A stretch of 58,071 nt of DNA from a virus (lineage: Duplodnaviria > Caudoviricetes). The notes under the pieces were generated by a model. That model was not told where the DNA came from. It saw only the letters and a program-made list of their open reading frames with translations, and made no database searches. Below are positions 10,847 to 54,140 of this stretch, in pieces. The stretch spans positions 1 through 58,071 of IMG/VR virus record IMGVR_UViG_3300040946_000134; one strand, written 5' to 3'. How positions within the stretch are numbered: the first letter of the stretch is position 1; each line of letters begins with the position of its first letter. The position numbers and the translations under genes are program-made.

Positions 10847-11425
10847 TCAGCGTGCTATGTTGATGATTATCCCATTGACCACGGTGACCGTGGCCCCGTC
10901 TGCAGACGTAAACACATCACTGGCACCGGTGGACACATTTAAATTACCATTAACCGTGATGCCCAAGCTCAAGTAGTCGGCGAAGGCGCTCGCGATCGCA
11001 CTGATTCCGACCAAGGCTATTCCATCAGCCATGCTGTGCATCCTGAGGGTGTTCGGAGGAGCCCCCGTGGTACCGTTTGTTAGCCAAGGGTCTAAATCCC
11101 GGTCATTGAACAGAACTAAGCAGGTGTCCCCTTGAGAAACCGGCATCCCAATGAAAGTGGAGCCTCCACGTAAAACGAATACCGGCACATCCTGCAAGAT
11201 GGGATATGGTATGAGGGATGGGGCTTGAGGAACCGTTCCCTTCACCAAACCCTTATTAAATACCTGCGCTGTATTTACTAGTTGGATGGATGCCGTCTGG
11301 GTATCAGCATTGAAGCTCACCACGGTCCCCACCCGCACGCAGTTCAGCCCCGAGTAGGAGTTGTCGCGCTCCTGGTCCAGGATCACCCGGAGGTCCGGAT
11401 TGACTAGGAAGGACTGGTTGTTCAT
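10847..11425 (-). CDS. Baseplate central spike (Gp138/gpV-like)
   Basis: VGTVVSFN, ILQDVPV, PVSQGDTCLVLFNDRDLDPW, RMHSMADGIALVG; C-terminal TVVNGII. Confidence 0.85.
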   Translation of the reverse strand: MNNQSFLVNPDLRVILDQERDNSYSGLNCVRVGTVVSFNADTQTASIQLVNTAQVFNKGLVKGTVPQAPSLIPYPILQDVPVFVLRGGSTFIGMPVSQGDTCLVLFNDRDLDPWLTNGTTGAPPNTLRMHSMADGIALVGISAIASAFADYLSLGITVNGNLNVSTGASDVFTSADGATVTVVNGIIINIAR

Positions 11426-25176: not shown

Positions 25177-25953
25177 ATGAGCGAACTAAATGACCCGCTG
25201 GTTAACGCAGCTCTAGCCGGCGAGGGAACCATACCGAAGGCGCGGAACCCGAAAAAGATTTTCATGGGCTCCGCCATGCAGGACTCCATGCGCAAGGAAA
25301 CCTCTAATTTCTGGTCCAGCATCCGAGCCGGAATGATCCCCGACTACAAGTTCGTCACACTTCGCCTGAGCGGGTACGGGCTTCCCAAGTGTAGGAACGT
25401 CCTCACCTGGGTGGCGCGGCAGACGGACTGCGGCCGCATCATGATGGTGGACTCCGACATGAACCCAAGGCTAGAGGACGTGGTCAGGCTCCTGAGCCAC
25501 GACGTCGAGCTGGTCTCCGGCTGCTACCCGCAGAAGCGGTTCGACAAGCTCTCCTGGGTTGGTAACTTCTCCGGACCGGCCGGGCCCAACGGTCTAGCAC
25601 CGGCATATGACTTCGGTGGCGGCTTCTGCTCCATAAGCCTGGATTTCATTGACAAGATGGTCGAGCACTACCCGGAGACGGCCTTCGAGTCCGAGGATGA
25701 TCCCTGGCGCGGGAAGATCATGCATGATCTCTGGAGCAACGGACCCGTGACGGACGAATGGCATGGGAGGAAGTATTCTCGCTATCTGACCGAGGACTAT
25801 TACCTATGCTACCGGGCGCGCAAGATGGGCGTTACACCATGGATGGACTCCGGCTGTCAGGTCGGGCACGTTGGAAGCATCGACTACCTGCAGTTATGGA
25901 TGGGCGTGAAGGTTCTTGAGAACCAGTCGATCTTCCGGGCCCCAACGGATTAA
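25177..25953 (+). CDS. GT-A fold glycosyltransferase-like protein (only credible plus-strand gene)
   Basis: LPKCRN, IMMVDSD (DxD), VSGCYPQK, GGGF, YLTEDYYLCYRARKMG...VGHVG motifs; TTGACA at 25129-25134 upstream. Confidence 0.8.
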   Translation: MSELNDPLVNAALAGEGTIPKARNPKKIFMGSAMQDSMRKETSNFWSSIRAGMIPDYKFVTLRLSGYGLPKCRNVLTWVARQTDCGRIMMVDSDMNPRLEDVVRLLSHDVELVSGCYPQKRFDKLSWVGNFSGPAGPNGLAPAYDFGGGFCSISLDFIDKMVEHYPETAFESEDDPWRGKIMHDLWSNGPVTDEWHGRKYSRYLTEDYYLCYRARKMGVTPWMDSGCQVGHVGSIDYLQLWMGVKVLENQSIFRAPTD

Positions 25954-26582
25954 GTCATCAGGAACGGAGTCCAGTGAGGATGCTTGGCCTCCCGTATGGC
26001 GAAGGTCATTGGAACGGACGGTGGCGCTTTCGGGGCGCGCAGAAGCTGGAGACCGGCCTCCCGGTTCAGCCTGTTACCCTTCCGGCTATTGATCTCCACG
26101 TGGGACAGAACCAGGTTCTCCCAGGTGTCACGGCCTCCAAGATCCCGCGGAAGAACGTGGTCTATGTTTCCCTCGCTCGGCTTGAGCCTGCGGCCGGTGT
26201 ACTGGCAGACCCCTTGGTCACGCTCCCAGATCCCACGCCGGCAGAGACGCGGGCGCTTCATCGGGATCTTGTCGTAATTCTGCTGGATGATCACGGTCGG
26301 TGCGCGGATGCCGCCGTTCACGGTAGCGATAGCAAGGTCGTGTTCCCGGACCGGAAGCTGAATCCAGTCCTCCCATGGAACGGGCGAGGCGTTGGTCAAC
26401 TGGCCCATGTCCAGGCTTCCGTCCTCTCTACGCATAAAGTCCACGTCCATCCCGAACGCCGGGTGCCCTCCGCTGAGTCCTCCGGCCATCGCTATGACGG
26501 CCTCCCCCACGGTGAGCATTCCTATAGGCCTCCAGCTCCTGTTGAGGGAGAGGCAGATGGTTTTGTCGAGGACTCCTGTCAT
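25950..26582 (-). CDS. HNH endonuclease immediately downstream of the tRNA array
   Basis: LSLNRSWRPI, PTVII, IWERDQGVCQYTG, NIDHVLPRDLGGRDTWENLV...NSRKGN. Confidence 0.9.
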   Translation of the reverse strand: MTGVLDKTICLSLNRSWRPIGMLTVGEAVIAMAGGLSGGHPAFGMDVDFMRREDGSLDMGQLTNASPVPWEDWIQLPVREHDLAIATVNGGIRAPTVIIQQNYDKIPMKRPRLCRRGIWERDQGVCQYTGRRLKPSEGNIDHVLPRDLGGRDTWENLVLSHVEINSRKGNRLNREAGLQLLRAPKAPPSVPMTFAIREAKHPHWTPFLMT

Positions 26583-26595
26583 GGGAAAGGCTGCG

Positions 26596-26610
26596 CGTTC
26601 TTTTCGCAAA
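26596..26610. repeat. Inverted-repeat arm A of array-bracketing pair (CGTTCTTTTCGCAAA)
   Basis: Exact reverse complement of 29722-29736. Confidence 0.85.
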
Positions 26611-26612
26611 AG

Positions 26613-26699
26613 TGGCGGAAGGCATCCCTGCTGCCGAGAATCCCCTTCGGGACGATCCGGTTAGCAACCGGTCACGCGGGCTGCCGCGTTTTACCTTCC
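26613..26699 (-). tRNA. tRNA-Ser(GCT)
   Basis: Loop TTGCTAA, long variable arm, G73, CCA. Confidence 0.8.
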
Positions 26700-26703
26700 A
26701 AGA

Positions 26704-26795
26704 TGGCGGTGAGTTGAGGACCTGCCCCCCAGCCCATTTCTGGACGCCTGGTTTTCGAGACCAGTCGGCGCTCTATTGCACCTGCTTAACTCACC
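26704..26795 (-). tRNA. tRNA-Ser(CGA)
   Basis: CTGGT-CTCGAAA-ACCAG, long variable arm, G73, CCA. Confidence 0.85.
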
Positions 26796-26796
26796 A

Positions 26797-26871
26797 TGGT
26801 TTTCCCGCGGGGACTCCCACCCCGATCATACGTTTAGGAAACGTAGGCCCTGTGTCTTGGACGACGGGAAA
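26797..26871 (-). tRNA. tRNA-Arg(CCT)
   Basis: TACGT-TTCCTAA-ACGTA, CCA. Confidence 0.85.
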
Positions 26872-26872
26872 G

Positions 26873-26949
26873 TGGTGCCTCACCAGGGACTTCAACCCGT
26901 GATTTCGCGGTCCGTAGCCGCGTGTCCTGTGCATTTGGACGAATGAGGC
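26873..26949 (-). tRNA. tRNA-Arg(ACG)
   Basis: CGCGG-CTACGGA-CCGCG, CCA. Confidence 0.85.
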
Positions 26950-26953
26950 GAAA

Positions 26954-27029
26954 TGGCATCGGCGGCAGGAGTTGCACCCGCATATAGCGGCTTAGAAGAC
27001 CGCGGCCTTTCTGTTCGAGCCACGCCGAC
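26954..27029 (-). tRNA. tRNA-Arg(TCT)
   Basis: GCGGT-CTTCTAA-GCCGC, CCA. Confidence 0.85.
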
Positions 27030-27030
27030 G

Positions 27031-27105
27031 TGGTGCCTCCCGCCGGACTCTCACCGGCATCGCAGCCTTCGGAGGGCTGAATCCTATATCTTGGATGAGG
27101 GAGGC
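27031..27105 (-). tRNA. tRNA-Arg(CCG)
   Basis: CAGCC-CTCCGAA-GGCTG, CCA. Confidence 0.85.
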
Positions 27106-27112
27106 CTGAAAT

Positions 27113-27190
27113 TGGGGTGGTCAACGGGAACTGCCCCCGTCCCCTCGCCTTCACAGGGCGATGTGCTTGCCTATCCACACTCTGACCACC
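27113..27190 (-). tRNA. tRNA-His(GTG)
   Basis: TCGCC-CTGTGAA-GGCGA, encoded G-1 and C73, CCA. Confidence 0.9.
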
Positions 27191-27191
27191 A

Positions 27192-27262
27192 TGGGGCCTT
27201 CGTTCGGTTCCGCCCCGAATTGGCCGCGCTACAAGGGCGGCTTCCCGACTACGGACGAAGGC
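27192..27262 (-). tRNA. tRNA-Thr(TGT), atypical (short D-arm, C-C mismatch closing anticodon loop)
   Basis: GCCTTCG/CGAAGGC acceptor, loop CTTGTAG, CCA. Confidence 0.6.
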
Positions 27263-27267
27263 GAAGC

Positions 27268-27342
27268 TGGATCTCCGCTCCGGGCTTGCGCCGGACTCCC
27301 CAGTTTACGGGACTGGCGCGTCGCTGCCTACGCTTGCGGAGA
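27268..27342 (-). tRNA. tRNA-Thr(CGT), C33
   Basis: CCAGT-CCCGTAA-ACTGG, CCA. Confidence 0.8.
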
Positions 27343-27343
27343 A

Positions 27344-27436
27344 TGGTGCTCCCGTCTGGTGCTGCCCCAGAACCCGGCGCTGATCTAGCGCGATTCCGCT
27401 TATAAGGCGGACGGTTCGACTGCGAACTGCGGGAGC
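27344..27436 (-). tRNA. tRNA-Ile(TAT) with long variable arm
   Basis: TCCGC-CTTATAA-GCGGA, variable hairpin GCGCT...AGCGC, A73, CCA. Confidence 0.75.
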
Positions 27437-27437
27437 G

Positions 27438-27510
27438 TGCCCAGGGTCGGACTCGCACCGACAACCTTCCGGTTTTAAGGCGGACGGCTCTTCTGTTGGC
27501 CTACCCGGGC
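27438..27510 (-). tRNA. tRNA-Leu(TAA), short variable loop, no encoded CCA
   Basis: TCCGC-CTTAAAA-CCGGA, A73. Confidence 0.7.
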
Positions 27511-27514
27511 AAGA

Positions 27515-27589
27515 TGGTGCGCGCGAAGGGATTTGCACCCATAGGACGGTGGGTTTGAGCCACCGATGTCTTCATTGCATCACACGCGC
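27515..27589 (-). tRNA. tRNA-Leu(CAA), short variable loop
   Basis: GGTGG-CTCAAAC-CCACC, A73, CCA. Confidence 0.8.
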
Positions 27590-27590
27590 A

Positions 27591-27665
27591 TGGTAGCCCA
27601 TCCGGGTGCCGCCCCCGGTTCTGAAGTTCGAGAAACTTCTGACTTAGCTGATGGTCGAATGGGCC
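27591..27665 (-). tRNA. tRNA-Glu(CTC)
   Basis: GAAGT-TTCTCGA-ACTTC, CCA. Confidence 0.85.
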
Positions 27666-27675
27666 ATACTGAAAT

Positions 27676-27760
27676 TGGTGGGCACGGCAGGACTCGCACC
27701 TGCAAAGGTCGCCGGTCTGAACGGCGTGGCTGTACTGATTCGCTCTGATCCCACGTGCCC
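27676..27760 (-). tRNA. tRNA-Leu(CAG), short variable loop, enlarged D region
   Basis: CGCCG-TTCAGAC-CGGCG, A73, CCA. Confidence 0.75.
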
Positions 27761-27769
27761 GTAGGAAAT

Positions 27770-27846
27770 TGGTGCCGGCGATAGGATTCGCACCTACACT
27801 TGCCACCTTCTCAGGATGGTGCCTCTTCTAGTTGGGCTACGTCGGC
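27770..27846 (-). tRNA. tRNA-Leu(GAG), short variable loop
   Basis: CCATC-CTGAGAA-GGTGG, A73, CCA. Confidence 0.8.
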
Positions 27847-27847
27847 A

Positions 27848-27923
27848 TGGATCTGGTTGCGGGAATTACACCCGCCATCACTCGCTTACCAAGCGAGGTC
27901 CGCGTTGTCTCGGAGTAACCAGA
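27848..27923 (-). tRNA. tRNA-Thr(GGT)
   Basis: CTCGC-TTGGTAA-GCGAG, CCA. Confidence 0.8.
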
Positions 27924-27924
27924 G

Positions 27925-27999
27925 TGGTGGGGACGTGGCGACTTGCACGCCTCTCTTCCGGGTAAGGGCCGGAGTCATCGCTTTCTATGAGTCATCCCC
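27925..27999 (-). tRNA. tRNA-Lys(CTT), C33
   Basis: TCCGG-CCCTTAC-CCGGA, CCA. Confidence 0.8.
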
Positions 28000-28000
28000 G

Positions 28001-28075
28001 TGGCAGTCCCCGAAGGATTCGCACCTTCACCTCAGCGGTTCAAAGCCGCGTGCGCTGCTGTTACGCTAGAGGACC
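28001..28075 (-). tRNA. tRNA-Gln(TTG)
   Basis: GCGG-CTTTGAA-CCGC, G73, CCA. Confidence 0.85.
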
Positions 28076-28079
28076 AAAG

Positions 28080-28154
28080 TGGTCGGAGCGGTGAGAGTCG
28101 GACTCACTTGGTCTTGTTCCCGAAACAAGTGCCTGGCCGTTAGGCTACGCTCCG
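28080..28154 (-). tRNA. tRNA-Pro(CGG)
   Basis: CTTGT-TTCGGGA-ACAAG, C1-G72, A73, CCA. Confidence 0.9.
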
Positions 28155-28155
28155 C

Positions 28156-28229
28156 TGGTTCTCACGGCCGGTAACGCTCCGGCTTCCCTTGCATGTCGAG
28201 CAAGTGCTCTGCTTCTGAGCTACGCGAGA
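28156..28229 (-). tRNA. tRNA-Val(GAC), C33
   Basis: CTTGC-TCGACAT-GCAAG, CCA. Confidence 0.8.
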
Positions 28230-28230
28230 A

Positions 28231-28304
28231 TGGCTCTCCAGGATGGTACTGCCCCACCTTCACACGGGTCAGAGCCGTGGGTAATGCTTCTATACGACTG
28301 GAGA
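28231..28304 (-). tRNA. tRNA-Gln(CTG)
   Basis: CACGG-CTCTGAC-CCGTG, U1-A72, G73, CCA. Confidence 0.85.
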
Positions 28305-28308
28305 ATAA

Positions 28309-28485
28309 TTCCCAGGTGGGATTGTATACCCACCGTGGCCGTGATAGGCGTGTTGGTGACGACGCCTCGTTACTTCTACCGTGCGGCCTAACCATACTCA
28401 TCTCGGCCGCTACACCCGCTCCGTATCGCTACACCGGGTATGCTCTCAAGGCCCTGATTAACGCCCGACCTGACGTGGCTGGAAA
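28309..28485 (-). ncRNA. Unassigned ~177-nt structured RNA inside the tRNA array
   Basis: Ends pair (TTTCCAG/CTGGGAA); internal helices GCGGCC/GGCCGC, AGGCGT/ACGCCT, GGTGGG/CCCACC; the only large non-tRNA gap in the array. Confidence 0.6.
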
Positions 28486-28560
28486 TGGCTGCTAGGGCAA
28501 GACTCGCACTTGCATAATACCGCTTAACAGGCGGGCGCACGACTATTGTGCTACCTAGCA
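28486..28560 (-). tRNA. tRNA-Asn(GTT)
   Basis: CCGC-CTGTTAA-GCGG, U1-A72, G73, CCA. Confidence 0.9.
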
Positions 28561-28564
28561 AAAG

Positions 28565-28638
28565 TGGTGGGGAATGAACGTGCTGCCCGCTCGACTCCTG
28601 AGTGTGGATCAGGTATGATTCTGTTTCAACAATCCCCC
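28565..28638 (-). tRNA. tRNA-Val(CAC), C33
   Basis: CCTGA-TCCACAC-TCAGG, CCA. Confidence 0.8.
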
Positions 28639-28639
28639 G

Positions 28640-28716
28640 TGGCGGTCCCAAGGAATGCTGCCTTCCTCTCTCCCGCGTGACGGGCGGGCGCTTTCAGCTA
28701 GGTAAGCTATGAGACC
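28640..28716 (-). tRNA. tRNA-Asp(GTC), C33
   Basis: CCCGC-CCGTCAC-GCGGG, G73, CCA. Confidence 0.85.
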
Positions 28717-28723
28717 GTGAAAG

Positions 28724-28798
28724 TGGTATAGACGGGGAGAATCGGACTCCCTTAATCTCGGTCCCAAGCCGAGCGATCAACCAATGACCCACGTCTGT
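28724..28798 (-). tRNA. tRNA-Pro(TGG)
   Basis: CTCGG-CTTGGGA-CCGAG, CCA. Confidence 0.8.
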
Positions 28799-28799
28799 G

Positions 28800-28875
28800 T
28801 GGTGGAGGCTCCCGGTGCCGCCCCGGGTTATCCGGTTCTTCAGACCGGCGCAATGACTGCACTTGCTCAACCTCC
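28800..28875 (-). tRNA. tRNA-Phe(GAA)
   Basis: CCGGT-CTGAAGA-ACCGG, CCA. Confidence 0.85.
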
Positions 28876-28882
28876 ATGAAAG

Positions 28883-28958
28883 TGGCATGCCCGGTAGGTA
28901 CTGCCCCTACATGAACCGGATTTGGAGTTCGGCGCCTTCCTTGTCGAGCCACGGGCAT
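28883..28958 (-). tRNA. tRNA-Trp(CCA)
   Basis: CCGAA-CTCCAAA-TCCGG, G73, CCA. Confidence 0.85.
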
Positions 28959-28964
28959 AAAAGA

Positions 28965-29038
28965 TGGGAGCAGGGGTGGGAGTCGCACCCACGACAGCCG
29001 CGGTTATGAGCCGAGCCAGAACGCTGGTTCTCCCTGCC
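28965..29038 (-). tRNA. tRNA-Met(CAT) (initiator vs elongator unresolved)
   Basis: CTCGG-CTCATAA-CCGCG, CCA. Confidence 0.75.
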
Positions 29039-29042
29039 AAGG

Positions 29043-29116
29043 TGGTGGTCAAGCACGGTGCTGCCCCGTAGTCTGACGGTTATCGACCGTCTGCTCTGCT
29101 GTTGAGCTACATGACC
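29043..29116 (-). tRNA. tRNA-Ile(GAT), C33
   Basis: GACGG-TCGATAA-CCGTC, CCA. Confidence 0.85.
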
Positions 29117-29117
29117 G

Positions 29118-29202
29118 TGGTCCAGGCGGTAGGACTCGCACCTACGAAGTCCGGAGACAACCGGGTTACGGCCGGTCGCGTTTGCTACTCTGCCACGCCT
29201 GG
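29118..29202 (-). tRNA. tRNA-Tyr(GTA), C33, C1-G72
   Basis: ACCGG-CCGTAAC-CCGGT, variable hairpin, acceptor CCAGGCG/CGCCTGG, A73, CCA. Confidence 0.8.
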
Positions 29203-29203
29203 A

Positions 29204-29278
29204 TGGTGCCCCAGTCCGGTAACGCTCCGGATCAGCCTGTTTGGAAGACAGGTGCGCATCTGTAAACGCTTCTGAGGC
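29204..29278 (-). tRNA. tRNA-Gly(TCC)
   Basis: CCTGT-CTTCCAA-ACAGG, A73, CCA. Confidence 0.85.
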
Positions 29279-29283
29279 GAAAT

Positions 29284-29358
29284 TGGTGGATCGTGTCGGT
29301 AACCCTCCGACTCCTCCCGGGTGCGGACCGGGTGTGCTTGTTTTACCACTAACGACCC
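29284..29358 (-). tRNA. tRNA-Ala(CGC), C33
   Basis: CCCGG-TCCGCAC-CCGGG, G3-U70 present, CCA. Confidence 0.85.
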
Positions 29359-29362
29359 AAGG

Positions 29363-29437
29363 TGGACGCGCATCCGGGTAATGCTCCCGGCCGTTCTGTT
29401 TTGCGGACAGACCCTCACTCTTGTCAGGCAATGCGCG
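29363..29437 (-). tRNA. tRNA-Cys(GCA), C33
   Basis: TCTGT-CCGCAAA-ACAGA, U73, CCA. Confidence 0.85.
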
Positions 29438-29444
29438 CTGAAAT

Positions 29445-29520
29445 TGGTGGCCCCGTCGGGTATCCCTCCCGCTTCATCTGCTTAAAAGGCAGCTGCTCAT
29501 GTGGCTAAAGCTTCGGAGCC
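29445..29520 (-). tRNA. tRNA-Lys(TTT)
   Basis: CTGC-CTTTTAA-GCAG, CCA. Confidence 0.8.
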
Positions 29521-29521
29521 G

Positions 29522-29595
29522 TGGTGCGGGCGCGGGGAGTCGCACCCCGGCCGAGTCGTTGGCAACGACCCATTCTGCTGCTGAACTACGCCCGC
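29522..29595 (-). tRNA. tRNA-Gly(GCC)
   Basis: GTCG-TTGCCAA-CGAC, A73, CCA. Confidence 0.9.
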
Positions 29596-29600
29596 GAAAA

Positions 29601-29675
29601 TGGTACCCCGTGAGAGTGCTACCCTCTCTTTTCCGGCTTGAAAGGCCAGTGAACTAGTTGGTATTCGAACGGGGC
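29601..29675 (-). tRNA. tRNA-Glu(TTC)
   Basis: GGC-CTTTCAA-GCC, CCA; first tRNA of the transcript. Confidence 0.85.
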
Positions 29676-30043: not shown

Positions 30044-30271
30044 TCAGACCAGGACCGCGATTATGTCCAGGACGGATTCCGCCCCGTCGTCCTGATAGCG
30101 CCCGTCCACGCCCCAAAGTTCCATGTACTCGATGTTGCCGGGAGGACCGCGCCAGCCCCGGTATGGGAAGACGTTGTATGGGTAGCCATCCTTGGTTGCG
30201 ATCGCATCCACCAGCGCAACCTCTCCGTTGCGGAGTCTGGCCTTGAAGGGTACTTTGGGCGGGAGGGTCAT
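30044..30271 (-). CDS. Hypothetical protein
   Basis: ATGA-coupled ORF; ARLRNG...WGVDGRY...LDII pattern common in small phage proteins. Confidence 0.6.
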   Translation of the reverse strand: MTLPPKVPFKARLRNGEVALVDAIATKDGYPYNVFPYRGWRGPPGNIEYMELWGVDGRYQDDGAESVLDIIAVLV

Positions 30272-32523
30272 TTTGTCGCAGGCTCTATCCTGACCGTGAC
30301 CTTCGGACCGACCACCGGCTCAGCGACGCAGGCCACGCTCATCTTGTTCTTGCGCTCCTCGAAGAAGGCGCGGGCCAGCTTTCTATTGTAGGCTCCGCCG
30401 GCATTCTCCTGACGGGCCACCTTCCAGTGGGAATCGTGGGGCTCGTGCCAGCAAACGTCGTCCGTGTAGGCGCGGCTCCTCCACCAGTCTTCCGGCTGGA
30501 TCGTCATGTACGAATGCGGCGCTCCGCCGTCCGCCCATTCTTCCGCGAGGGTCCGCATGCAAAGGTCCCAGGCTTCCCGGCCGGTCAGCATGTCAGGCAT
30601 CTTCTCCCGGTGCGCGGCCCACCAAGCCGGGCTCATCGCTATCACGTCCATCCCGCCATCGACCTTGCAGTTCTTCACGCTGCGGTAGGCCCTCCCAGGC
30701 TCGGGGCAGGTCAGCACGCGCCTTGGGCATATGGTAACCCCTTTTCCTCGTTCCACGCCCGCCACGAGCCTTTGCGCGGCCTCCGTGGTCAATCCTATGT
30801 CCTCATTGATGTAAACGATAATGTCTTCCGGCAAGGCTGTTTTGGCCCCGGCGTCCAGGAGATCCCGGATGTACGGCGTCCCGTGCTCGTCCCCCACGTC
30901 CCGGCCGGTCCGCGCGATCTCGGATTCGCAGACGGCCCGCTCCAGCATCTGGAATTGCCCGAAGAGGAAGCGCCAGGTCGCGTGGGCGTTCGCCATCCGC
31001 CTGCTTTCCTCTTTGTCCTTTGGCTGATATGGAGCGTGAACGAGAATCAGCTGCGGAGGCGGCGTTATCCCCTTCCGCATGATCGCTTGGGTCCGCGCCC
31101 TGTCGTAGCCACGGGTCAGCGGCCGAAGGTCCCCGGACTTCTCAGCACGGACGGTCCCGGAGCCCATGTGCGAGCCGTAGTACGACAAGAGCTTGTCCAC
31201 GTACAGCCAGGTCGGGAAGGCCTGGATGGTCCGCAGGTAAACCATGATTTCCGTCCCCAGCAGCATCCCGGGACGCTCCAGGCATTCGTTGTGGACCAAG
31301 GTCGCCGCGGCCTCCTTGCAAGCGTGGATCAGGACCGATCTGTTGAGGACCGAAACCACCGGGGAAAGAGAGAGCGTCCCGAAGCGGGCCACGAGCCCCT
31401 GGAGTTCTTTCGACTGCATGACCCGCGTCCCCCCTTGCCAGTATTCCGTTGGGCGAATGGATCCGTCCTCGTTCTTCACGTGGCCGCGCCAGGAAGCGAA
31501 CCCCACCCCGGAGTCCAGGATCGGGCTGATGATCTTGCAGTAGGTTTCCCCAAACTCTGGCAGAAGTTCGTCATCGTCGTGGAAGAGGATGATTCTCTCC
31601 GTCCGGCTGCCGTATGCAGCGAGGATCCACGTGTCGTTGCAGCCAACGTCGTGGGGAGTTCGGTTCACGTCGTAGGAAAGCCAGCCCTGCCGGTTCCAGT
31701 CTATCGTGAACTCCGTTCCCGAGCACGGGTCGGAAGCGCCTATCGAGACCCGGCGGATGCCGGCCGCTCGGATGGACTTCAGGGCGCGGTCCAGGTATTC
31801 CGGGCGTCGGTAGCTGGTTATGCACACCGTCAGGTTCTCCAGGATTGGATTGCTGACCACCTCCACCGCCTTGACCTCGCTTGCCGGCCAGTGAACGTAA
31901 AGGGAATCCGATCCCAGGTTCATCCTCTCCGCGTAGCCGTGGTCAGAGAACCACTTCTTTATATCCGTGAGAGATCCGGCCCCTTCATAGTGCCCGTGCT
32001 CGACGGTCTCGTCCGTCTCCAGGAAGATCAGTTTGGGGCGAAGGTCTCCGAGGCCCTGGAGCACCGCCAGCTCCGCGCCTTGCACGTCCACGTGCAACAG
32101 ATCAATGGACGCAATCCCCGCGCCGCAGCAGAAGGAGTCTAGCCGGACGGCTTCCACCTTGTACGGCTCCCGGAACTTAAGGTGCGGAGCGTCTTTCGCC
32201 AGCGTCTCCGTGGGCTTCAGTATGGAGCCGCTCATCCCTAGCTTCAGGTTCAGGTGCTCGTCCGAGTTGGAATGGAACTCCACTTCTCCATCTCGGTCGC
32301 AGACCGCCGCGTGGTGGACTTCTATCCCCGCCCGCGCCGCTTCTCCTGCTGCGAGGATCGCCGCGTGGTTGTCCTTGTCCGCCTCGAATGCTATGACCCG
32401 CGCCCCGGGGTGCGCCTCCTTGAACATGATCGCGTCCTTCGCGTCATAGGTCCCAACGTCCAGGATGACGGCTGGGGCTTCGCCGAGGTTGGATTCGATC
32501 CATTCAGTCTTAAGTTGGGTCAT
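30268..32523 (-). CDS. Multidomain FkbM-family methyltransferase / GT2 glycosyltransferase fusion
   Basis: VILDVG, RVIAFEA, IDLLHVDVQGAELAVLQG (FkbM); VCITSYRRPEYLDRALKSI, ILFHDDD (GT2); third GT-like domain with YINED. Confidence 0.85.
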   Translation of the reverse strand: MTQLKTEWIESNLGEAPAVILDVGTYDAKDAIMFKEAHPGARVIAFEADKDNHAAILAAGEAARAGIEVHHAAVCDRDGEVEFHSNSDEHLNLKLGMSGSILKPTETLAKDAPHLKFREPYKVEAVRLDSFCCGAGIASIDLLHVDVQGAELAVLQGLGDLRPKLIFLETDETVEHGHYEGAGSLTDIKKWFSDHGYAERMNLGSDSLYVHWPASEVKAVEVVSNPILENLTVCITSYRRPEYLDRALKSIRAAGIRRVSIGASDPCSGTEFTIDWNRQGWLSYDVNRTPHDVGCNDTWILAAYGSRTERIILFHDDDELLPEFGETYCKIISPILDSGVGFASWRGHVKNEDGSIRPTEYWQGGTRVMQSKELQGLVARFGTLSLSPVVSVLNRSVLIHACKEAAATLVHNECLERPGMLLGTEIMVYLRTIQAFPTWLYVDKLLSYYGSHMGSGTVRAEKSGDLRPLTRGYDRARTQAIMRKGITPPPQLILVHAPYQPKDKEESRRMANAHATWRFLFGQFQMLERAVCESEIARTGRDVGDEHGTPYIRDLLDAGAKTALPEDIIVYINEDIGLTTEAAQRLVAGVERGKGVTICPRRVLTCPEPGRAYRSVKNCKVDGGMDVIAMSPAWWAAHREKMPDMLTGREAWDLCMRTLAEEWADGGAPHSYMTIQPEDWWRSRAYTDDVCWHEPHDSHWKVARQENAGGAYNRKLARAFFEERKNKMSVACVAEPVVGPKVTVRIEPATK

Positions 32524-33314
32524 TTTCTAAGTCTCCAAAGCGCGTGTGGGTGATAGGAAAGCCCAATGTACTCCTCGGCCACCAGCGTGTAGTAGGCGTC
32601 CAGGAGCGGCCGGAAATTCTGGTGCGGCGTGAAGGAGTCTGCCGGGGTGTTCCAGGTGAAGTAGGCGTCGTGGTTCTTCTCCGTTCCATGGACCACGGTG
32701 AAGAGATACGGCACCTTCAGGTCCTTCAGAACGTCCAGCCAGCGGCGGATCTGCTCCAGGGAGCATTCTGACCAGGAGTGGACATTCACGGCCAGGTCGA
32801 ACTTCCGGTCCTCCGCCGTCTCCGCGAACTGGTCCAGGTCCAGGACCGATACTGATGGGGCGAAGCGGTGGCAATAATGCCGGCAGATTTGGGTCGATAT
32901 GGGAACCGGGTCCACGCAGGTGACGGTGGTCATCATTGGAGCCAGCGCAACCGCCAGCCTCCCGTACCCGGCCCCTATGTCCAGAACGTCACGGAAGCGA
33001 AGAGCGCTGGATATGTTCCTGCGAATGAAGTCGATCTCCACGCAGGAGTCCAGCCACATGCGGGTCACCTGTCCAAAGTCCTCCGTGTAAACTAAACGTG
33101 CCCCATACTCTCGGTCCCTGGTTCGTGCCGCTAGATCGTTCCAATACGGAAGCGATTTAATCCCCCTTGCAACCCTCCTGAACTCTTCTTCTGGTATGGA
33201 TTCCTGGTCCACGTAAATCTTGTCCGCGCAGAAGTTCGGGAGCGCGTCCTTCACCTTCTGTTGCCAGGTCTCCCAGAAGGAGAGTTCTCGCAAGCCTTCG
33301 AGGTCAATGGTCAT
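32520..33314 (-). CDS. Class I SAM-dependent (sugar O-) methyltransferase
   Basis: VLDIGAGYGRLA, FDLAVNVHSWSEC motifs. Confidence 0.85.
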   Translation of the reverse strand: MTIDLEGLRELSFWETWQQKVKDALPNFCADKIYVDQESIPEEEFRRVARGIKSLPYWNDLAARTRDREYGARLVYTEDFGQVTRMWLDSCVEIDFIRRNISSALRFRDVLDIGAGYGRLAVALAPMMTTVTCVDPVPISTQICRHYCHRFAPSVSVLDLDQFAETAEDRKFDLAVNVHSWSECSLEQIRRWLDVLKDLKVPYLFTVVHGTEKNHDAYFTWNTPADSFTPHQNFRPLLDAYYTLVAEEYIGLSYHPHALWRLRK

Positions 33315-34006
33315 CAGCAGAACACCCTGTCCGGGTTTCCAATCTTCTCGCAGAACCCCACGGCCAGCCGGACGTTCTCCAGCTGCTCCGCGCAGTCCTT
33401 CTCTCCTATCCACTGCGGCTTGTGTGGCTCATGCCAGCACACCCCGTCCGTCACAGCTTGTGATTTCAGAAGCGCCTCGGTGCTCCTATCTAGCGGCTCC
33501 TTTTCCGGCTTCCCGTCCGCCCATACTTGAGCGATCAGCGTGAAGATCATGTCCCAACCTCCGCGCCCAACGTACATCGGCGGCATCTTGCGGCCGGGAT
33601 TATTCCACCATTCCCGTGAACAGGCTACCAGGTCTATGCCGGCGTCCATCTCCCACGCTGAAAGGTCGTCGTACAGAACGTCCGGCCGCGGAACCACGGA
33701 TCTCCGAGGGCATACCGTGACGCCATGGCCCCTGGCTATCCCGCGGGATATCAGCTGGAGCGCGTTCTTGGTCAGCCCCGCGTCCGAATTAGCATAGGCT
33801 ATGATGTCGGTGTCATCCGCCGCGTGGCAGGCGGCGTCCAGAAGTTCCGTTATCCGCAGGTGGCGATGGGGAGGCTGCGCAAGTGGCATGAAGGCCAGCT
33901 GCGGCCCGTCGTCTGGAAGGTCCATCCATGAACGCTCCGCACGCTTCCTCCGGCGCTCATCGTCCGAGTTCTGGTATGGATAGACTGCGTGGGTCAGGTA
34001 GATCAT
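33314..34006 (-). CDS. Glycosyltransferase-like protein, paralogous to the C-terminal domain of 30268-32523
   Basis: DIIAYANSD, GVTVCPRR, GIDLVA, VCWHEPH shared with the neighbour. Confidence 0.65.
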   Translation of the reverse strand: MIYLTHAVYPYQNSDDERRRKRAERSWMDLPDDGPQLAFMPLAQPPHRHLRITELLDAACHAADDTDIIAYANSDAGLTKNALQLISRGIARGHGVTVCPRRSVVPRPDVLYDDLSAWEMDAGIDLVACSREWWNNPGRKMPPMYVGRGGWDMIFTLIAQVWADGKPEKEPLDRSTEALLKSQAVTDGVCWHEPHKPQWIGEKDCAEQLENVRLAVGFCEKIGNPDRVFC

Positions 34007-52958: not shown

Positions 52959-54140
52959 TCAGTCCTTGTATGGGTCGAAGGTGTCCCTACCGGCCATTGC
53001 CACGCCGATTGGTTTCAGAATCTCCAGGATTCGAATAGTGCTGGAATGGGCGGCGAGAACGGAGTCGAGGCGCTTATAGGCCTGCGGGGATTCGTCTAGT
53101 CCTCCGCCGCGCAGCTCCACGTGGGCCCGGCCCACTACCCAGTCGTCCATCATTTCCTGGGTGATTTTCCCTTCCGAGATATGTACTTTCTCTCCGTTCT
53201 TCCAGCGGACCTTGCCGGCCGCTTCCGTCCGAGACATCGCGCGCCCGGCTCCGTGAACGGTGGAATAGAGGGATAGCTTGGCGTCGGGATGTTCTACGCC
53301 TTCTAGGATCACGGAGTTCTCGCCCATCGTCCCTCCGACAAACCCCTTCTGGCCGGGAAAGGCCGGGGTCGCTCCCTTGCGAACCACCCAAAGCCTCTCG
53401 CCGTCATGCGTCTCTTCCCAGGCGAAATTGTGATGGTTGTGAATCTCCGCTAAAACGCCCGCCCCGATTATCTGCGCCACCTTGGAGCAAACCCAATCTC
53501 GTCCAGCATAGGCGAAGCGGCCCGCCAGGTTCATGCAGGCCAGGTATTCCCGTCCGAGGTCCGTGTCCGTCTTCAGGACACACGGGTCCACGTTTATGCC
53601 GTCTTTGCCTCCAGCCGCTTTTATGTAATGGGTTGCCAGCTTATGGCCCAGTCCGCGGGACCCGAAGTGAACCCCGACCCAAATAAATCCGTTCGGGTCC
53701 TTGAATATGTCAACGTAATGATTCCCGGAGCCCACGGTGCCCAGCTGCTCCCGCGCCAGGTCCTTAAGAGAGGCAGCGGCTGGTATCTCCCAGGCTGGGT
53801 CGTCGAATAGCGGATGGTCGACCGTTTCCTTGTTCTTCCGTCCGACTCCGAAGCTGATGGTGTTCCAAACGTCATCCATTATCAGGGAAATTCTCGGCCA
53901 TACGTCCGCGGCCATTGCATTAAGCATCACGGCCTTGTTCCCGCAGGCTATATCGTAGCCTACCCCCGACGGACTAATCGCCCCTTGGTACGCCACCACG
54001 CCGCCAACAGGCACCGCATAGCCCTGATGATGGTCCGCCATGAGCGCAACCCTGTAGGCAGTCTTCAGGCAGTTTCGCGCCTGGACCAGCGCGTTTTCCA
54101 GGGGCTCACCCCAGACCGGGATTCCGTCTATGATTTTCAT
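52959..54140 (-). CDS. rtcB: RtcB family RNA ligase
   Basis: MADHHQGY, GVGYDIACG, LGTVGSGNHY, HFGSRG, HNHHN, RKGATPA, HGAGR, DESPQAYK motifs. Confidence 0.95.
   Translation of the reverse strand: MKIIDGIPVWGEPLENALVQARNCLKTAYRVALMADHHQGYAVPVGGVVAYQGAISPSGVGYDIACGNKAVMLNAMAADVWPRISLIMDDVWNTISFGVGRKNKETVDHPLFDDPAWEIPAAASLKDLAREQLGTVGSGNHYVDIFKDPNGFIWVGVHFGSRGLGHKLATHYIKAAGGKDGINVDPCVLKTDTDLGREYLACMNLAGRFAYAGRDWVCSKVAQIIGAGVLAEIHNHHNFAWEETHDGERLWVVRKGATPAFPGQKGFVGGTMGENSVILEGVEHPDAKLSLYSTVHGAGRAMSRTEAAGKVRWKNGEKVHISEGKITQEMMDDWVVGRAHVELRGGGLDESPQAYKRLDSVLAAHSSTIRILEILKPIGVAMAGRDTFDPYKD

What the first reader, a model, noticed from the sequence alone, without database searches (positions are those of the whole stretch)
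26613..29675. All 36 tRNAs have a rewired elbow: no TTC T-loop, with compensatory D-loop changes
Seen: T-loops read TGCGAGT, GGCAGCA, AGCGTTA, TGGGAGT, TGAGAGT, TCCGACT etc., never TTCRA. Most have G55 with D-loop A18 instead of G18, and positions 19/56 covary. Arg(CCT) D-loop AC goes with G55G56, Arg(CCG) AT with G55A56, Arg(ACG) GC with U55G56, Thr(GGT) and Glu(TTC) AA with G55U56. Both Pro tRNAs keep GG with C55C56. Position 54/58 is mostly T-A, A-T or G-G. Covariation argues for selection, not decay. Established: G18-Psi55 and G19-C56 are near-universal and are read by TrmA/TruB, RNase P, T-boxes and the ribosome. Inference: these tRNAs fold without host T-loop modifications or evade elbow-recognising nucleases/sensors; standard scanners may under-call them.
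Basis: partly seen in the sequence, partly recalled or inferred. Interest (0 to 1): 0.8.

Follow-up and report, generated by a model that had tools for sequence, protein, structure and literature searches.

The report
Phage tRNA set with rewired elbow
A peat-soil phage carries 36 tRNA genes in which the near-universal contact between the two tRNA loops (G18 with pseudouridine-55) is replaced by an adenine-guanine contact, and the same alternative design turns up in many other uncultured phages and mobile tRNA gene arrays that standard gene finders largely miss.

Summary
On the minus strand of 26613-29675 lie 36 tightly packed tRNA genes covering all 20 amino acids. None has a UUC T-loop: 33 have G55, the two Pro tRNAs C55, Arg(ACG) U55. 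The D-loop co-varies: A18 with G55, G18 with U55 or C55, and 19:56 stays Watson-Crick through seven swaps. 29 of 32 regular tRNAs obey both rules, against a mean of 16.1 in shuffles (0 of 100000 reach 29). ARAGORN and Rfam each call only 13 of 36.

It is not unique. A two-T-arm pattern found at least 116 loci with such tRNAs in viral contigs and genomes, many labelled Verrucomicrobiota. Across 1372 parsed tRNAs, 737 of 767 G55 tRNAs have an AG D-loop and 514 of 522 U55 tRNAs have GG.

Structurally this is the generic T-loop solution of riboswitches and rRNA (YGNRA or GGNRG with an intercalating adenosine).

The module matches the published 'L-arrays': the downstream HNH gene is homologous to the one beside the Nostoc L-array, and the phage encodes RtcB. 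In one Verrucomicrobiaceae genome the array sits beside Ro60, RtcB and HNH, while 30 of 30 dispersed tRNAs are canonical.

Why the elbow was rewired (escape from elbow-reading enzymes, or neutral descent) is untested. My searches found no description in print.

The parts
26613..29675 (-). Array of 36 tRNA genes (all 20 amino acids), 71-93 bases each, gaps of 0-10 bases, apart from one 181-base element
29601..29675 (-). tRNA-Glu(UUC); T-loop G54 G55 U56 G58; 18-19 = AA (19:56 A-U)
29522..29595 (-). tRNA-Gly(GCC); U54 G55 C56; 18-19 = AG
29445..29520 (-). tRNA-Lys(UUU); A54 G55 G56 A58; 18-19 = AC (19:56 C-G); A8 with U14
29363..29437 (-). tRNA-Cys(GCA); A54 G55 C56 U58; AG; C33; U73
29284..29358 (-). 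tRNA-Ala(CGC); A54 G55 G56 U58; AC (19:56 C-G); G3:U70 present; C33
29204..29278 (-). tRNA-Gly(UCC); A54 G55 C56 U58; AG; A8 with U14
29118..29202 (-). tRNA-Tyr(GUA), long variable arm; U54 G55 C56; AG; C33
29043..29116 (-). tRNA-Ile(GAU); G54 G55 C56 G58; AG; C33
28965..29038 (-). tRNA with anticodon CAU (Met; alternative register AAC); U54 G55 C56; irregular D-arm without a clear 18-19
28883..28958 (-). tRNA-Trp(CCA); G54 G55 C56; AG
28800..28875 (-). tRNA-Phe(GAA); G54 G55 C56; AG
28724..28798 (-). tRNA-Pro(UGG); U54 C55 C56; 18-19 = GG
28640..28716 (-). tRNA-Asp(GUC); G54 G55 C56; AG; C33
28565..28638 (-). tRNA-Val(CAC); G54 G55 C56; AG; C33
28486..28560 (-). tRNA-Asn(GUU); U54 G55 C56; AG
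28305..28485 (-). 181-base element inside the array with no tRNA reading; predicted to be strongly folded; about 117 bases are 79% identical to an unannotated stretch of Klebsiella phage phi1_146050
   Evidence: no Rfam family
28231..28304 (-). tRNA-Gln(CUG); G54 G55 C56; AG
28156..28229 (-). tRNA-Val(GAC); A54 G55 C56 U58; AG; C33
28080..28154 (-). tRNA-Pro(CGG); U54 C55 C56; GG
28001..28075 (-). tRNA-Gln(UUG); U54 G55 C56; AG
27925..27999 (-). tRNA-Lys(CUU); U54 G55 C56; AG; C33
27848..27923 (-). tRNA-Thr(GGU); U54 G55 U56; AA (19:56 A-U)
27770..27846 (-). tRNA-Leu(GAG), short variable loop; U54 G55 C56; AG
27676..27760 (-). tRNA-Leu(CAG); oversized D region, short variable loop; U54 G55 C56
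27591..27665 (-). tRNA-Glu(CUC); G54 G55 C56; AG
27515..27589 (-). tRNA-Leu(CAA), short variable loop; U54 G55 C56; AG next to a 3-pair D-stem
27437..27510 (-). tRNA-Leu(UAA), short variable loop; U54 G55 C56; AG; CCA not fully encoded (abuts the next gene)
27344..27436 (-). tRNA with anticodon UAU, a 23-base variable arm and A73; G54 G55 C56; AG
27268..27342 (-). tRNA-Thr(CGU); C54 G55 C56 A58; AG; C33
27192..27262 (-). tRNA-Thr(UGU), 71 bases, reduced D-arm; G54 G55 C56 G58
27113..27190 (-). tRNA-His(GUG) with encoded G-1 (27190) and C73; G54 G55 C56; AG
27031..27105 (-). tRNA-Arg(CCG); U54 G55 A56; AU (19:56 U-A)
26954..27029 (-). tRNA-Arg(UCU); U54 G55 C56; AG
26873..26949 (-). tRNA-Arg(ACG); U54 U55 G56; 18-19 = GC (G18 with U55; 19:56 C-G); T-stem only 3 of 5 pairs
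26797..26871 (-). tRNA-Arg(CCU); U54 G55 G56; AC (19:56 C-G)
26704..26795 (-). tRNA-Ser(CGA), long variable arm, G73, unusual D-arm; G54 G55 C56 G58; homologous to an unannotated Ser-like gene in Mycobacterium phage LeBron
26613..26699 (-). tRNA-Ser(GCU), long variable arm, G73; G54 G55 C56 G58
25950..26609 (-). HNH nuclease (about 210-219 aa) directly downstream of the array on the same strand. Its family is a recurrent neighbour of such arrays and is homologous to the HNH gene beside the Nostoc PCC 7120 L-array
52959..54140 (-). RtcB RNA ligase (393 aa), 23 kb from the array; RtcB genes lie beside such arrays in other loci

Best explanation
WHAT IT IS. An operon-like array of 36 working tRNA genes of the mobile 'L-array' kind. 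An all8564-like HNH nuclease gene follows it, and an RtcB repair ligase is encoded elsewhere in the genome. The carrier is a tailed phage with a contractile tail, found in peat and wetland samples; its host is probably a member of the Verrucomicrobiota.

HOW THE tRNAs FOLD. They keep the cloverleaf, the encoded CCA end and the synthetase identity marks, but they dock D-loop to T-loop differently. In place of tRNA's own U54-pseudoU55-C56 loop with intercalating G18, they use the generic T-loop of riboswitches, introns and rRNA. That loop reads Y-G-N-R-A or G-G-N-R-G. An adenine, here A18, slides between positions 57 and 58 and bonds to G55. The outer 19:56 pair stays Watson-Crick, whichever bases form it.

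SHOWN. The genes, the covariation, their wide occurrence, and the contrast with canonical host tRNAs.

INFERRED FROM SOLVED NON-tRNA T-LOOPS. The A18-G55 geometry.

DIRECT CONSEQUENCE. These tRNAs cannot carry pseudouridine-55. 33 of 36 cannot carry Gm18, and 19 of 36 cannot carry m5U54.

INFERRED ROLE (least certain). A spare tRNA set that keeps translation running when ordinary tRNAs are attacked or depleted during infection or stress, and that does not depend on, or is not seen by, proteins reading the canonical T-Psi-C/G18 elbow.
For: GENES. 36 cloverleaves with 7 of 7 acceptor pairs where checked. CCA is fully encoded in 35 of 36. Ala has G3:U70 and His has G-1 with C73. Ser and Tyr have long variable arms.

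COVARIATION IN THE WINDOW. 29 of 32 obey both rules; 0 of 100000 shuffles reach that.

COVARIATION ELSEWHERE. In 1372 unique tRNAs from 239 loci: G55C56 n=767, with AG in 737 and GG in 45; U55C56 n=522, with GG in 514 and AG in 34; U55U56 has GA in 17 of 17.

ORTHOLOGUES. In 17 gapless nearest-neighbour pairs, 117 of 128 changed stem pairs stay paired, 92 of them through double changes. There are coordinated 18:55 or 19:56 switches in the UUU, UGG, CGG, CCU, UUC and CCG pairs.

HOST CONTRAST. In one Verrucomicrobiaceae genome, 30 of 30 dispersed tRNAs are UUC with GG, while 15 of 16 array tRNAs have G55.

PARSER CONTROLS ON CULTURED PHAGES. GAP31 18 of 18, LeBron 7 of 7, CcrRogue 16 of 16 canonical.

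STRUCTURAL PRECEDENT. Passages of bioRxiv 10.1101/2022.12.26.521914: T-loops UGNRA 88.7% and CGNRA 10.9%; an adenosine intercalates between positions 4 and 5 with two hydrogen bonds to the sugar edge of the G at position 2; an rRNA T-loop reads GGAAG.

MODULE. The HNH gene is homologous to the one beside the Nostoc L-array (35.7% over 112 aa, E 1e-16). HNH homologues lie in 40 of the 239 loci, RtcB in 13 and Ro60/TROVE in 13. The phage RtcB matches Pfam PF01139 at 4.5e-66. L-arrays are induced under translational stress and co-regulated with rtcB (PMC8421152, passages).

USE. The array's anticodons can read 13006 of 15013 codons of 59 crude phage ORFs.
Against: No direct evidence of expression, processing, charging or use in translation. 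Contigs from four RNA libraries cover array and flanking genes alike at depth 2-8, and could be carried-over DNA.

The A18-G55 geometry is borrowed from non-tRNA T-loops. The A54/U58 class (4 genes) has no precedent in what I read.

Several genes are irregular: CAU, Thr-UGU, Leu-CAG, Ser-CGA and the UAU gene with a long arm. Nine have C33.

60 of 239 loci mix at least 2 G55 with at least 2 U55 tRNAs, so the rewiring is not needed for an array tRNA to persist. This argues against a strong, general evasion benefit.

The studied Nostoc L-array is canonical in 17 of 18 parsed genes, so what is known of L-array function was learnt on ordinary elbows.

The array cannot read Ala GCC/GCA/GCU, Ser UCC/UCU/UCA and a few other codons, so host tRNAs are still needed.

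The parser requires paired stems, so the counts of kept pairs are partly circular.
Confidence: 0.7

Rival explanations
1. Neutral alternative fixed by descent. The A18/G55 elbow is simply an equally good fold. It arose in a lineage of mobile array tRNAs and spread with the array and its HNH homing endonuclease. It has no adaptive purpose; array tRNAs are merely freer than housekeeping tRNAs to drift among workable T-loop versions.
For: Mixed arrays are common: 60 of 239 loci have at least 2 of each type. G55 occurs with nearly every anticodon and with no clear pattern. Other universal positions also drift in these arrays: C33 in 105 of 804 G55 tRNAs and 29 of 550 U55 tRNAs, and A8 variants. 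T-loop sequence space is known to be broad in other RNAs. Full-length HNH homologues accompany nearly pure G55 arrays, as shared descent would give.
Against: Whole sets have been converted: 33 of 36 here, and 31 arrays with at least 8 tRNAs and at least 80% G55. Orthologous pairs switch in both directions with all partners changing together, which needs selection on the contact. In the one cell genome checked, none of 30 dispersed housekeeping tRNAs uses the design, so something keeps the two pools apart.
Confidence: 0.3
2. Not translation adaptors but decoys or ligands. The array RNAs act as sponges for tRNA-cutting toxins, or as partners of Ro60/Rsr in the manner of tRNA-like Y RNAs. The altered elbow then marks them as non-substrates for the translation or modification machinery.
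For: Ro60/TROVE genes lie beside such arrays in 13 loci, and directly next to the array in the Verrucomicrobiaceae genome. Bacterial Y RNAs beside Ro60 mimic tRNA (PMC4201824, abstract and passages). The L-array paper itself raises a sponge role and saw cleavage of array tRNAs (PMC8421152, passages).
Against: The set has anticodons for all 20 amino acids that match 87% of the phage's codons. Synthetase identity marks are kept: G3:U70, G-1/C73, long arms in Ser and Tyr. CCA is encoded. This phage has no TROVE gene. A decoy would need none of these.
Confidence: 0.1
3. Self versus host marking. The phage or island encodes or recruits a nuclease that destroys canonical tRNAs by reading the T-Psi-C/G18 elbow, and the rewired set is spared and takes over translation.
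For: The set is near-complete, with no canonical elbow among its 36 genes. An HNH nuclease of unknown target always follows such arrays. A toxin that cuts within the T-loop exists (CdiA-CT E479; PMC9086364, passage).
Against: The array cannot read the common Ala GCC and Ser UCC codons, so host tRNAs must survive. Mixed arrays are frequent. In the Verrucomicrobiaceae genome the module co-exists with a full canonical set. The HNH domain resembles DNA-cutting HNH domains, and the published reading is a homing endonuclease.
Confidence: 0.06
4. Decaying or spurious tRNA-like sequences without function.
For: Low scores with standard tools. Several irregular members. No expression proof.
Against: Covariation at tertiary and stem pairs. 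Intact acceptor stems and CCA ends throughout. The same array is held in metagenome runs of 17 studies from 2017 to 2025.
Confidence: 0.02

Closest known systems
[quoted passage not shown]
   Same: A long array of tRNA genes for most amino acids. The paper says these spread by horizontal transfer, and that similar arrangements exist in bacteria and bacteriophages. It lists Verrucomicrobia among the phyla that hold them. A conserved HNH homing-endonuclease gene sits beside the array: the window's HNH is 35.7% identical over 112 aa to the one beside the Nostoc array. There is also a link to rtcB.
   Different: In the Nostoc array 17 of 18 parsed genes have the ordinary UUC/GG elbow; here 0 of 36 do. 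The paper's main text holds none of the terms T-loop, G18, U55, T54 or tertiary; its supplements were not seen. Here the HNH gene lies downstream of the array, not upstream, and the carrier is a phage.
Generic T-loop motif with intercalating adenosine (FMN and cobalamin riboswitches, introns, rRNA; bioRxiv 10.1101/2022.12.26.521914, passages)
   Same: The five-base loops U-G-N-R-A, C-G-N-R-A and G-G-N-R-G, with an adenine inserted between positions 4 and 5 and bonded to the G at position 2. This is exactly the sequence logic of classes U, C and G here, with A18 as the adenine.
   Different: Those are not tRNAs. That paper states that tRNA T-loops differ by having U at the second position. The extra 19:56 pair and the A54/U58 class are not part of that motif as I read it.
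Canonical bacterial and phage tRNAs (Rfam RF00005)
   Same: Cloverleaf, 7-base anticodon and T-loops, CCA end, and identity elements.
   Different: G18, U55 and often U54 are replaced. C33 occurs in 9 of 36. Four Leu tRNAs have short variable loops. Only 13 of 36 reach the family's gathering score.
Animal mitochondrial tRNAs and tRNA-Pyl, which lack G18 G19 and T-Psi-C (review PMC7609411, passages)
   Same: Natural, active tRNAs without the canonical elbow nucleotides.
   Different: In those the D-loop/T-loop contact is lost or replaced by other contacts. Here it is kept through compensating changes, across a whole set of otherwise bacterial-type tRNAs.
Phage tRNAs with anticodon-loop changes proposed to escape anticodon nucleases (eLife 2023, PMC10264068; search listing and term search)
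   Same: Phage-encoded tRNAs that depart from host tRNAs at conserved positions, read as counter-defence. The C33 variants here may belong to that theme.
   Different: That work concerns the anticodon loop; its text holds none of the terms T-loop, D-loop, T-arm or elbow.

Membership tests
tRNA (Rfam RF00005) | Cloverleaf with 7-pair acceptor stem, D-, anticodon and T-arms, and a 7-base anticodon loop | tested here: met
   32 of 36 pass a strict structure-only parser. 33 of 36 match a custom covariance model at E<0.001. The other or irregular genes have 7 of 7 acceptor pairs and 3-5 of 5 T-stem pairs. Four have irregular D-arms.
tRNA (Rfam RF00005) | Score at or above the family's gathering threshold (29 bits) | tested here: inconclusive
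   13 of 36 reach it. The shortfall is what the altered conserved loops would produce.
tRNA (Rfam RF00005) | Conserved tertiary nucleotides G18, G19, U54, U55, C56, A58 | tested here: not met
   G18 in 3 of 36, U55 in 1 of 36, U54 in 17 of 36. They are replaced by co-varying alternatives.
tRNA (Rfam RF00005) | Aminoacylation and use on the ribosome | not testable with these tools
   Only indirect signs: G3:U70 in Ala, G-1/C73 in His, encoded CCA.
L-array (PMC8421152) | Long array of tRNA genes, far longer than gene accretion would give (up to 43 genes in the paper) | tested here: met
   36 genes in 3063 bases.
L-array (PMC8421152) | Conserved HNH endonuclease gene beside the array | tested here: met
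   The window HNH at 25950-26609 is homologous to the HNH at 52366-52902 of pCC7120delta (E 1e-16). Homologues lie in 40 of 239 array loci.
L-array (PMC8421152) | Link with rtcB | tested here: met
   RtcB at 52959-54140. It is 23 kb from the array here and adjacent in other loci.
L-array (PMC8421152) | Silent in normal growth, induced under translational stress | not testable with these tools
   No expression data of that kind. Contigs from RNA libraries are uninformative.
Generic T-loop with adenosine intercalation | Loop sequence YGNRA (or the rRNA type GGAAG) in the first five loop positions | tested here: met
   28 of 36 fit: 14 read UGNRA, 1 CGNRA and 13 GGNRG. The other 8 do not fit: the 5 genes with A54, the 2 Pro tRNAs (U54 C55) and Arg-ACG (U54 U55).
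Generic T-loop with adenosine intercalation | An adenine from the partner loop inserted between loop positions 4 and 5 and bonded to G at position 2 | not testable with these tools
   Sequence covariation of A18 with G55 fits it. No RNA 3D tool was on hand.

The most novel reading that the evidence does not exclude
A second, parallel design of the tRNA elbow exists in nature. It is carried by mobile tRNA arrays of phages and of soil and wetland bacteria. It has been selected because it makes a whole spare tRNA set orthogonal to every protein that reads the universal T-Psi-C/G18 elbow: the modification enzymes TruB, TrmA and TrmH, T-loop-cutting toxins, and defence nucleases. Together with RtcB and Ro60 it would form a portable kit that keeps translation alive under attack on tRNA.
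Probability: 0.3. Interest if true: 0.9.

Novelty: new variant of a known kind. Interest (0 to 1): 0.8.

Why it matters
G18, pseudouridine-55 and the T-Psi-C loop are among the most conserved nucleotides in biology. The reviews I read treat them as hallmarks of tRNA in all three domains. Here whole tRNA sets for all 20 amino acids do without them, by a clean compensating change.

This opens several tests. It is a natural experiment on what pseudouridine-55, m5U54 and Gm18 are for. It offers candidate tRNAs that TruB, TrmA and T-loop nucleases may not recognise. It also explains why many phage and array tRNAs are missing from annotations: ARAGORN found 1 of 87 of the G54 G55 kind. tRNA counts in uncultured phages, and codon-usage arguments built on them, are therefore probably too low.

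Finally, it ties phage tRNA arrays to the RtcB/Ro60 RNA-repair neighbourhood.

Tried and rejected
CLOSE RELATIVES OF THE PHAGE. Single-protein scans of viral contigs with the Mu-F-like head protein and with the portal found nothing. An alignment of portal homologues brought 80 loci at 39-82% identity. They hold only 3 tRNAs, all canonical, so they say nothing about the array.

CULTURED PHAGES WITH G55 ARRAYS. None found. DNA searches with this array and with a pure G55 array (L115) hit only canonical tRNAs or unannotated Ser-like genes. The one exception is an unannotated Ser-like gene with a G54 G55 loop in Mycobacterium phage LeBron.

ALIGNMENT. MAFFT alignments of the tRNAs misplaced gaps. 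I therefore built the model from 9 gapless genes. The D-loop columns of the model-made alignment are not in register, so I did not run the count of structure pairs. I used a shuffle test that applies the same flexible 18-19 rule to real and shuffled data.

RNA EVIDENCE. Contigs of four metatranscriptome runs cover pieces of the array and of the flanking genes at depth 2-8. They show no starts or ends and cannot exclude DNA, so they are not counted as evidence either way.

PROMOTER AND TERMINATOR SCAN. No more sites than in shuffles.

THE HNH PROTEIN. The model is confident (pLDDT 91.9), but only the roughly 65-residue HNH core matches solved structures; the N-terminal domain matches nothing. 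Its target stays unknown. It has no similarity to the nuclease after the LeBron tRNAs or to the HNH after the Corynebacterium phage tRNA.

THE TWO METHYLTRANSFERASES upstream of the array (30268-32523, 32520-33413). I considered them as tRNA-modifying enzymes. They are not conserved beside other arrays (1 of 239 loci for the first), and their best family matches are FkbM and sugar O-methyltransferase types. The idea was dropped.

CHANCE MATCHES. The pattern used for the collection scans is expected to hit large collections by chance (my own estimate, about 130 for the genome collection). 32 of 119 viral loci and 53 of 120 genome loci held no parsable tRNA. These include all hits in named isolates such as Pseudomonas and Streptomyces. 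They are counted as misses.

CAS12a3 as an elbow reader. The paper describes contacts to the T-arm backbone, not to bases. Dropped.

LITERATURE. No description of G55/A18 tRNAs in searches, or in term searches of PMC7912444, PMC7609411, PMC10264068, PMC8421152 and PMC4201824. Supplements are closed; those of PMC8421152 and PMC4201824 may hold tRNA alignments that bear on this.

Full report
WHAT THE WINDOW IS. The window is a single virus record of 58071 bases, estimated 83% complete, with G+C near 0.59. Its genes mark a tailed phage: large terminase, portal, Mu-F-like head protein, major capsid protein, tail sheath, RecT-like and exonuclease genes, and a DnaC-like loader. The nearest cultured relative by portal is Bdellovibrio phage phi1422 at 39% identity. 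Near-identical DNA of the array region stands in metagenome runs labelled peat, wetland or metagenome, in 17 studies from 2017 to 2025.

THE OBSERVATION. ARAGORN at default finds 13 tRNA genes in 26613-29675, all on the minus strand. It also reports one at 11717-11790 inside an ORF, which my covariance model did not find. Rfam's tRNA model reaches its gathering score on 13.

A parser that looks only at base pairing found 32 cloverleaves. A covariance model built from nine gapless members found 33 at E<0.001. The remaining or irregular genes were verified from their CCA ends, with 7 of 7 acceptor pairs in each.

One 181-base element at 28305-28485 is not a tRNA.

No T-loop begins UUC. Position 55 is G in 33, C in the two Pro tRNAs and U in Arg(ACG). 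Positions 54/58 are U/A in 17, G/G in 13, A/U in 4, A/A in 1 and C/A in 1.

Seven tRNAs depart from G19:C56, each with the complementary base in the D-loop. Glu-UUC and Thr-GGU have A-U. Lys-UUU, Ala-CGC, Arg-CCU and Arg-ACG have C-G. Arg-CCG has U-A.

With one flexible rule for where 18-19 may lie, 29 of 32 regular tRNAs hold the dinucleotide predicted from 55 and 56. Shuffling T-loops among the tRNAs gives 16.1 on average and never 29 in 100000 trials. Two of the three misses hold AG just outside the frame I allowed; the third has an irregular D-arm.

THESE ARE tRNAs, NOT WRECKS. CCA is fully encoded in 35 of 36. Ala carries G3:U70. His has an encoded G-1 opposite C73. Ser and Tyr have long variable arms.

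I compared window tRNAs with the nearest tRNA of the same anticodon and architecture in other loci, which gave 17 pairs at 60-86% identity. 128 stem pairs differ and 117 stay paired, 92 of them by changes on both sides. This count is partly circular, since both partners passed a pairing filter.

The same gapless comparisons show the tertiary contacts switching as units. Lys-UUU here has A18 C19 with G55 G56, and its relative has G18 G19 with U55 C56. Glu-UUC has A19:U56 where its relative has G19:C56. The UGG, CGG, CCU and CCG pairs behave likewise.

The array's anticodons can read 13006 of 15013 codons of 59 crude phage ORFs, but not Ala GCC/GCA/GCU or Ser UCC/UCU/UCA.

IT IS WIDESPREAD. A pattern of two adjacent U54-G55-C56 T-arms hit 119 stretches of viral contigs and 120 of prokaryote genome contigs.

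Many hits are chance: 32 viral and 53 genome loci hold no parsable tRNA. But 60 viral and 56 genome loci hold at least two G55 tRNAs, and 31 loci have arrays of at least 8 tRNAs that are at least 80% G55.

Among 1372 unique parsed tRNAs, G55 C56 goes with AG in 737 of 767 (GG in 45). U55 C56 goes with GG in 514 of 522 (AG in 34). U55 U56 goes with GA in 17 of 17 and C55 C56 with GG in 14 of 15. The rare 56 variants mostly carry the complementary base at 19.

Unusual 54/58 pairs (G/G, A/U, C/A) cluster with G55. The loci were chosen for G55, so these frequencies are not population estimates; the covariation is what counts.

Cultured-phage arrays parsed the same way are canonical: GAP31 18 of 18, LeBron 7 of 7, CcrRogue 16 of 16, Remus 3 of 3. 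So the parser does not create the effect.

ARAGORN at default finds 533 of 546 U55 C56 tRNAs but only 530 of 777 G55 C56 tRNAs. Among the latter it finds 1 of 87 with G54.

NOT A HOST TRAIT, AND NOT ONLY A PHAGE TRAIT. By my tally, about 27 of 39 genome loci with three or more G55 tRNAs are labelled Verrucomicrobiota. The rest are mostly Myxococcota, Planctomycetota and others.

In one Verrucomicrobiaceae genome of 6.3 Mb, 30 of 30 dispersed tRNAs parsed have UUC with GG. An array on a 3.4-Mb contig has G55 in 15 of 16. That array is not in a prophage. Its flanks are cellular genes (GlgE, planctomycete-type cytochrome, ZnuA). It is followed on the same strand by a Ro60/TROVE gene, an RtcB gene and an HNH gene.

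Around the 239 array loci, homologues of that HNH lie in 40, RtcB in 13 and TROVE in 13. The window has the HNH directly after the array (25950-26609) and an RtcB at 52959-54140 (Pfam PF01139, 4.5e-66), but no TROVE.

All 12 genome loci with a full-length HNH homologue are labelled Verrucomicrobiota. The two closest to the window's protein (51% and 49% identity) are Opitutaceae. This is a weak pointer to the host.

HOW IT COMPARES WITH WHAT IS KNOWN. The gene module is the 'L-array' of Santamaria-Gomez et al. 2021 (PMC8421152; passages read). L-arrays are long tRNA arrays spread by horizontal transfer in several phyla, including Verrucomicrobia. They have a conserved HNH homing endonuclease beside them and rtcB nearby. 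In Anabaena they are induced under translational stress and favour survival.

I fetched that array on plasmid pCC7120delta. Its HNH is homologous to the window's (35.7% over 112 aa, E 1e-16). But 17 of its 18 parsed tRNAs have the ordinary elbow. The exception, a GAU gene with G54 G55 and A18 G19, is missed by ARAGORN. The paper's main text has no occurrence of T-loop, G18, U55, T54 or tertiary.

The fold has a precedent outside tRNA. In FMN and cobalamin riboswitches the T-loop reads UGNRA (88.7%) or CGNRA (10.9%). An adenosine intercalates between positions 4 and 5 and makes two hydrogen bonds to the sugar edge of the G at position 2. An rRNA T-loop reads GGAAG. The authors note that tRNA differs by having U at position 2 (bioRxiv 10.1101/2022.12.26.521914, passages).

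The window's classes U, C and G with G55 (28 of 36) are those very loops, with A18 as the adenosine. The A18/G55 covariation is thus a swap of tRNA's private solution for the general one. This step is inference from sequence.

WHAT IT IS FOR. Shown: these tRNAs cannot be substrates for pseudouridine-55 formation, and most cannot be for Gm18; 19 lack U54. Inferred: they form a spare set that works when ordinary tRNAs are damaged or scarce.

For this reading: RtcB in the phage; RtcB and Ro60 beside such arrays; the published stress induction of L-arrays; a toxin that cuts within the T-loop (CdiA-CT E479; PMC9086364, passage); and further departures from universal positions, namely C33 in 9 of 36 here, and in 105 of 804 G55 against 29 of 550 U55 array tRNAs.

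Against an adaptive reading: 60 loci mix both elbow types; G55 shows no preference for particular anticodons; and the best-studied L-array is canonical. A neutral origin, carried along with the array and its homing endonuclease, remains a serious rival.

The HNH protein has a confident model, but only its HNH core matches solved structures. Its target is unknown.

IN PRINT? Five full-text searches and term searches of five relevant papers and reviews found no description of G55/A18 tRNAs. So 'not described' is provisional.

VERDICT. Its structural logic is explained by a known RNA motif, and its gene context by a known kind of mobile array. Its purpose is open. I rate it a new variant of a known kind, of high interest to tRNA and phage biologists.

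Noticed in passing
window 28305-28485 (-): A 181-base element interrupts the tRNA array. It has no tRNA reading, a predicted fold of -65 kcal/mol, and about 117 bases that are 79% identical to an unannotated stretch next to tRNA-Asn and tRNA-Gln in the N4-like Klebsiella phage phi1_146050 (L082 2501-2623). No Rfam family matches either copy. It may be a conserved phage non-coding RNA.
   Followed up: partly
window 26613-29675 (-), anticodon loops: 9 of 36 tRNAs have C33 instead of the near-universal U33: Cys, Ala, Tyr, Ile-GAU, Asp, Val-CAC, Val-GAC, Lys-CUU and Thr-CGU. In the wider set, C33 occurs in 105 of 804 G55 tRNAs and 29 of 550 U55 tRNAs. Position 8 also varies, with A8 opposite U14 in Lys-UUU and Gly-UCC.
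   Followed up: partly
window 27344-27436 (-): A tRNA with anticodon UAU (codon AUA, 222 uses in crude phage ORFs) has a 23-base variable arm and A73. Those features belong to Leu/Ser/Tyr-type tRNAs rather than Ile. Which amino acid it carries is open.
   Followed up: no
window 27437-27846 (-): The Leu tRNAs with anticodons UAA, CAA and GAG have short variable loops, and Leu(CAG) has an oversized D region instead of a long variable arm. Mycobacterium phage LeBron also has 75-base Leu tRNAs.
   Followed up: no
L081 about 1507-1597 (Mycobacterium phage LeBron, NC_014461): An unannotated Ser(UGA)-like tRNA with a G54 G55 C56 T-loop lies right after the annotated tRNA-His. It is 77-83% identical to the window's Ser(CGA). 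It is shared by at least 22 Mycobacterium phage records, several of which have no annotation at that place.
   Followed up: partly
L358 4780-5910 (Caulobacter phage CcrRogue, NC_019408): An unannotated stretch between annotated tRNAs holds several Ser-like tRNA genes with unusual D-arms; one has a T-loop starting A-U-C.
   Followed up: no
L355 11164-16740 and L337 (Verrucomicrobiaceae genome G001, contig 1, about 2616000-2624700): A chromosomal island with the gene order: G55 tRNA array, Ro60/TROVE, RtcB, HNH, and an unknown 274-aa gene. All are on one strand, and cellular genes flank the island.
   Followed up: partly
window 30268-32523 (-) and 32520-33413 (-): Two methyltransferase genes lie directly upstream of the array. 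One is a 751-aa protein with an N-terminal FkbM-family domain; the other is a class I enzyme whose best match is a putative sugar O-methyltransferase family. The phage also has a glucosyltransferase-like gene at 46468-47607, which hints at modified DNA or glycan chemistry.
   Followed up: partly
L362 838-908 (Nostoc PCC 7120 plasmid pCC7120delta, 49837-49907): The last gene of the studied Anabaena tRNA operon, a GAU tRNA with a G54 G55 C56 T-loop and an A18 G19 D-loop, is not called by ARAGORN.
   Followed up: no
window 11717-11790 (+): ARAGORN calls a tRNA-Pro(UGG) inside the ORF at 11422-12333 on the other strand. My covariance model does not find it. It is probably a false call.
   Followed up: partly
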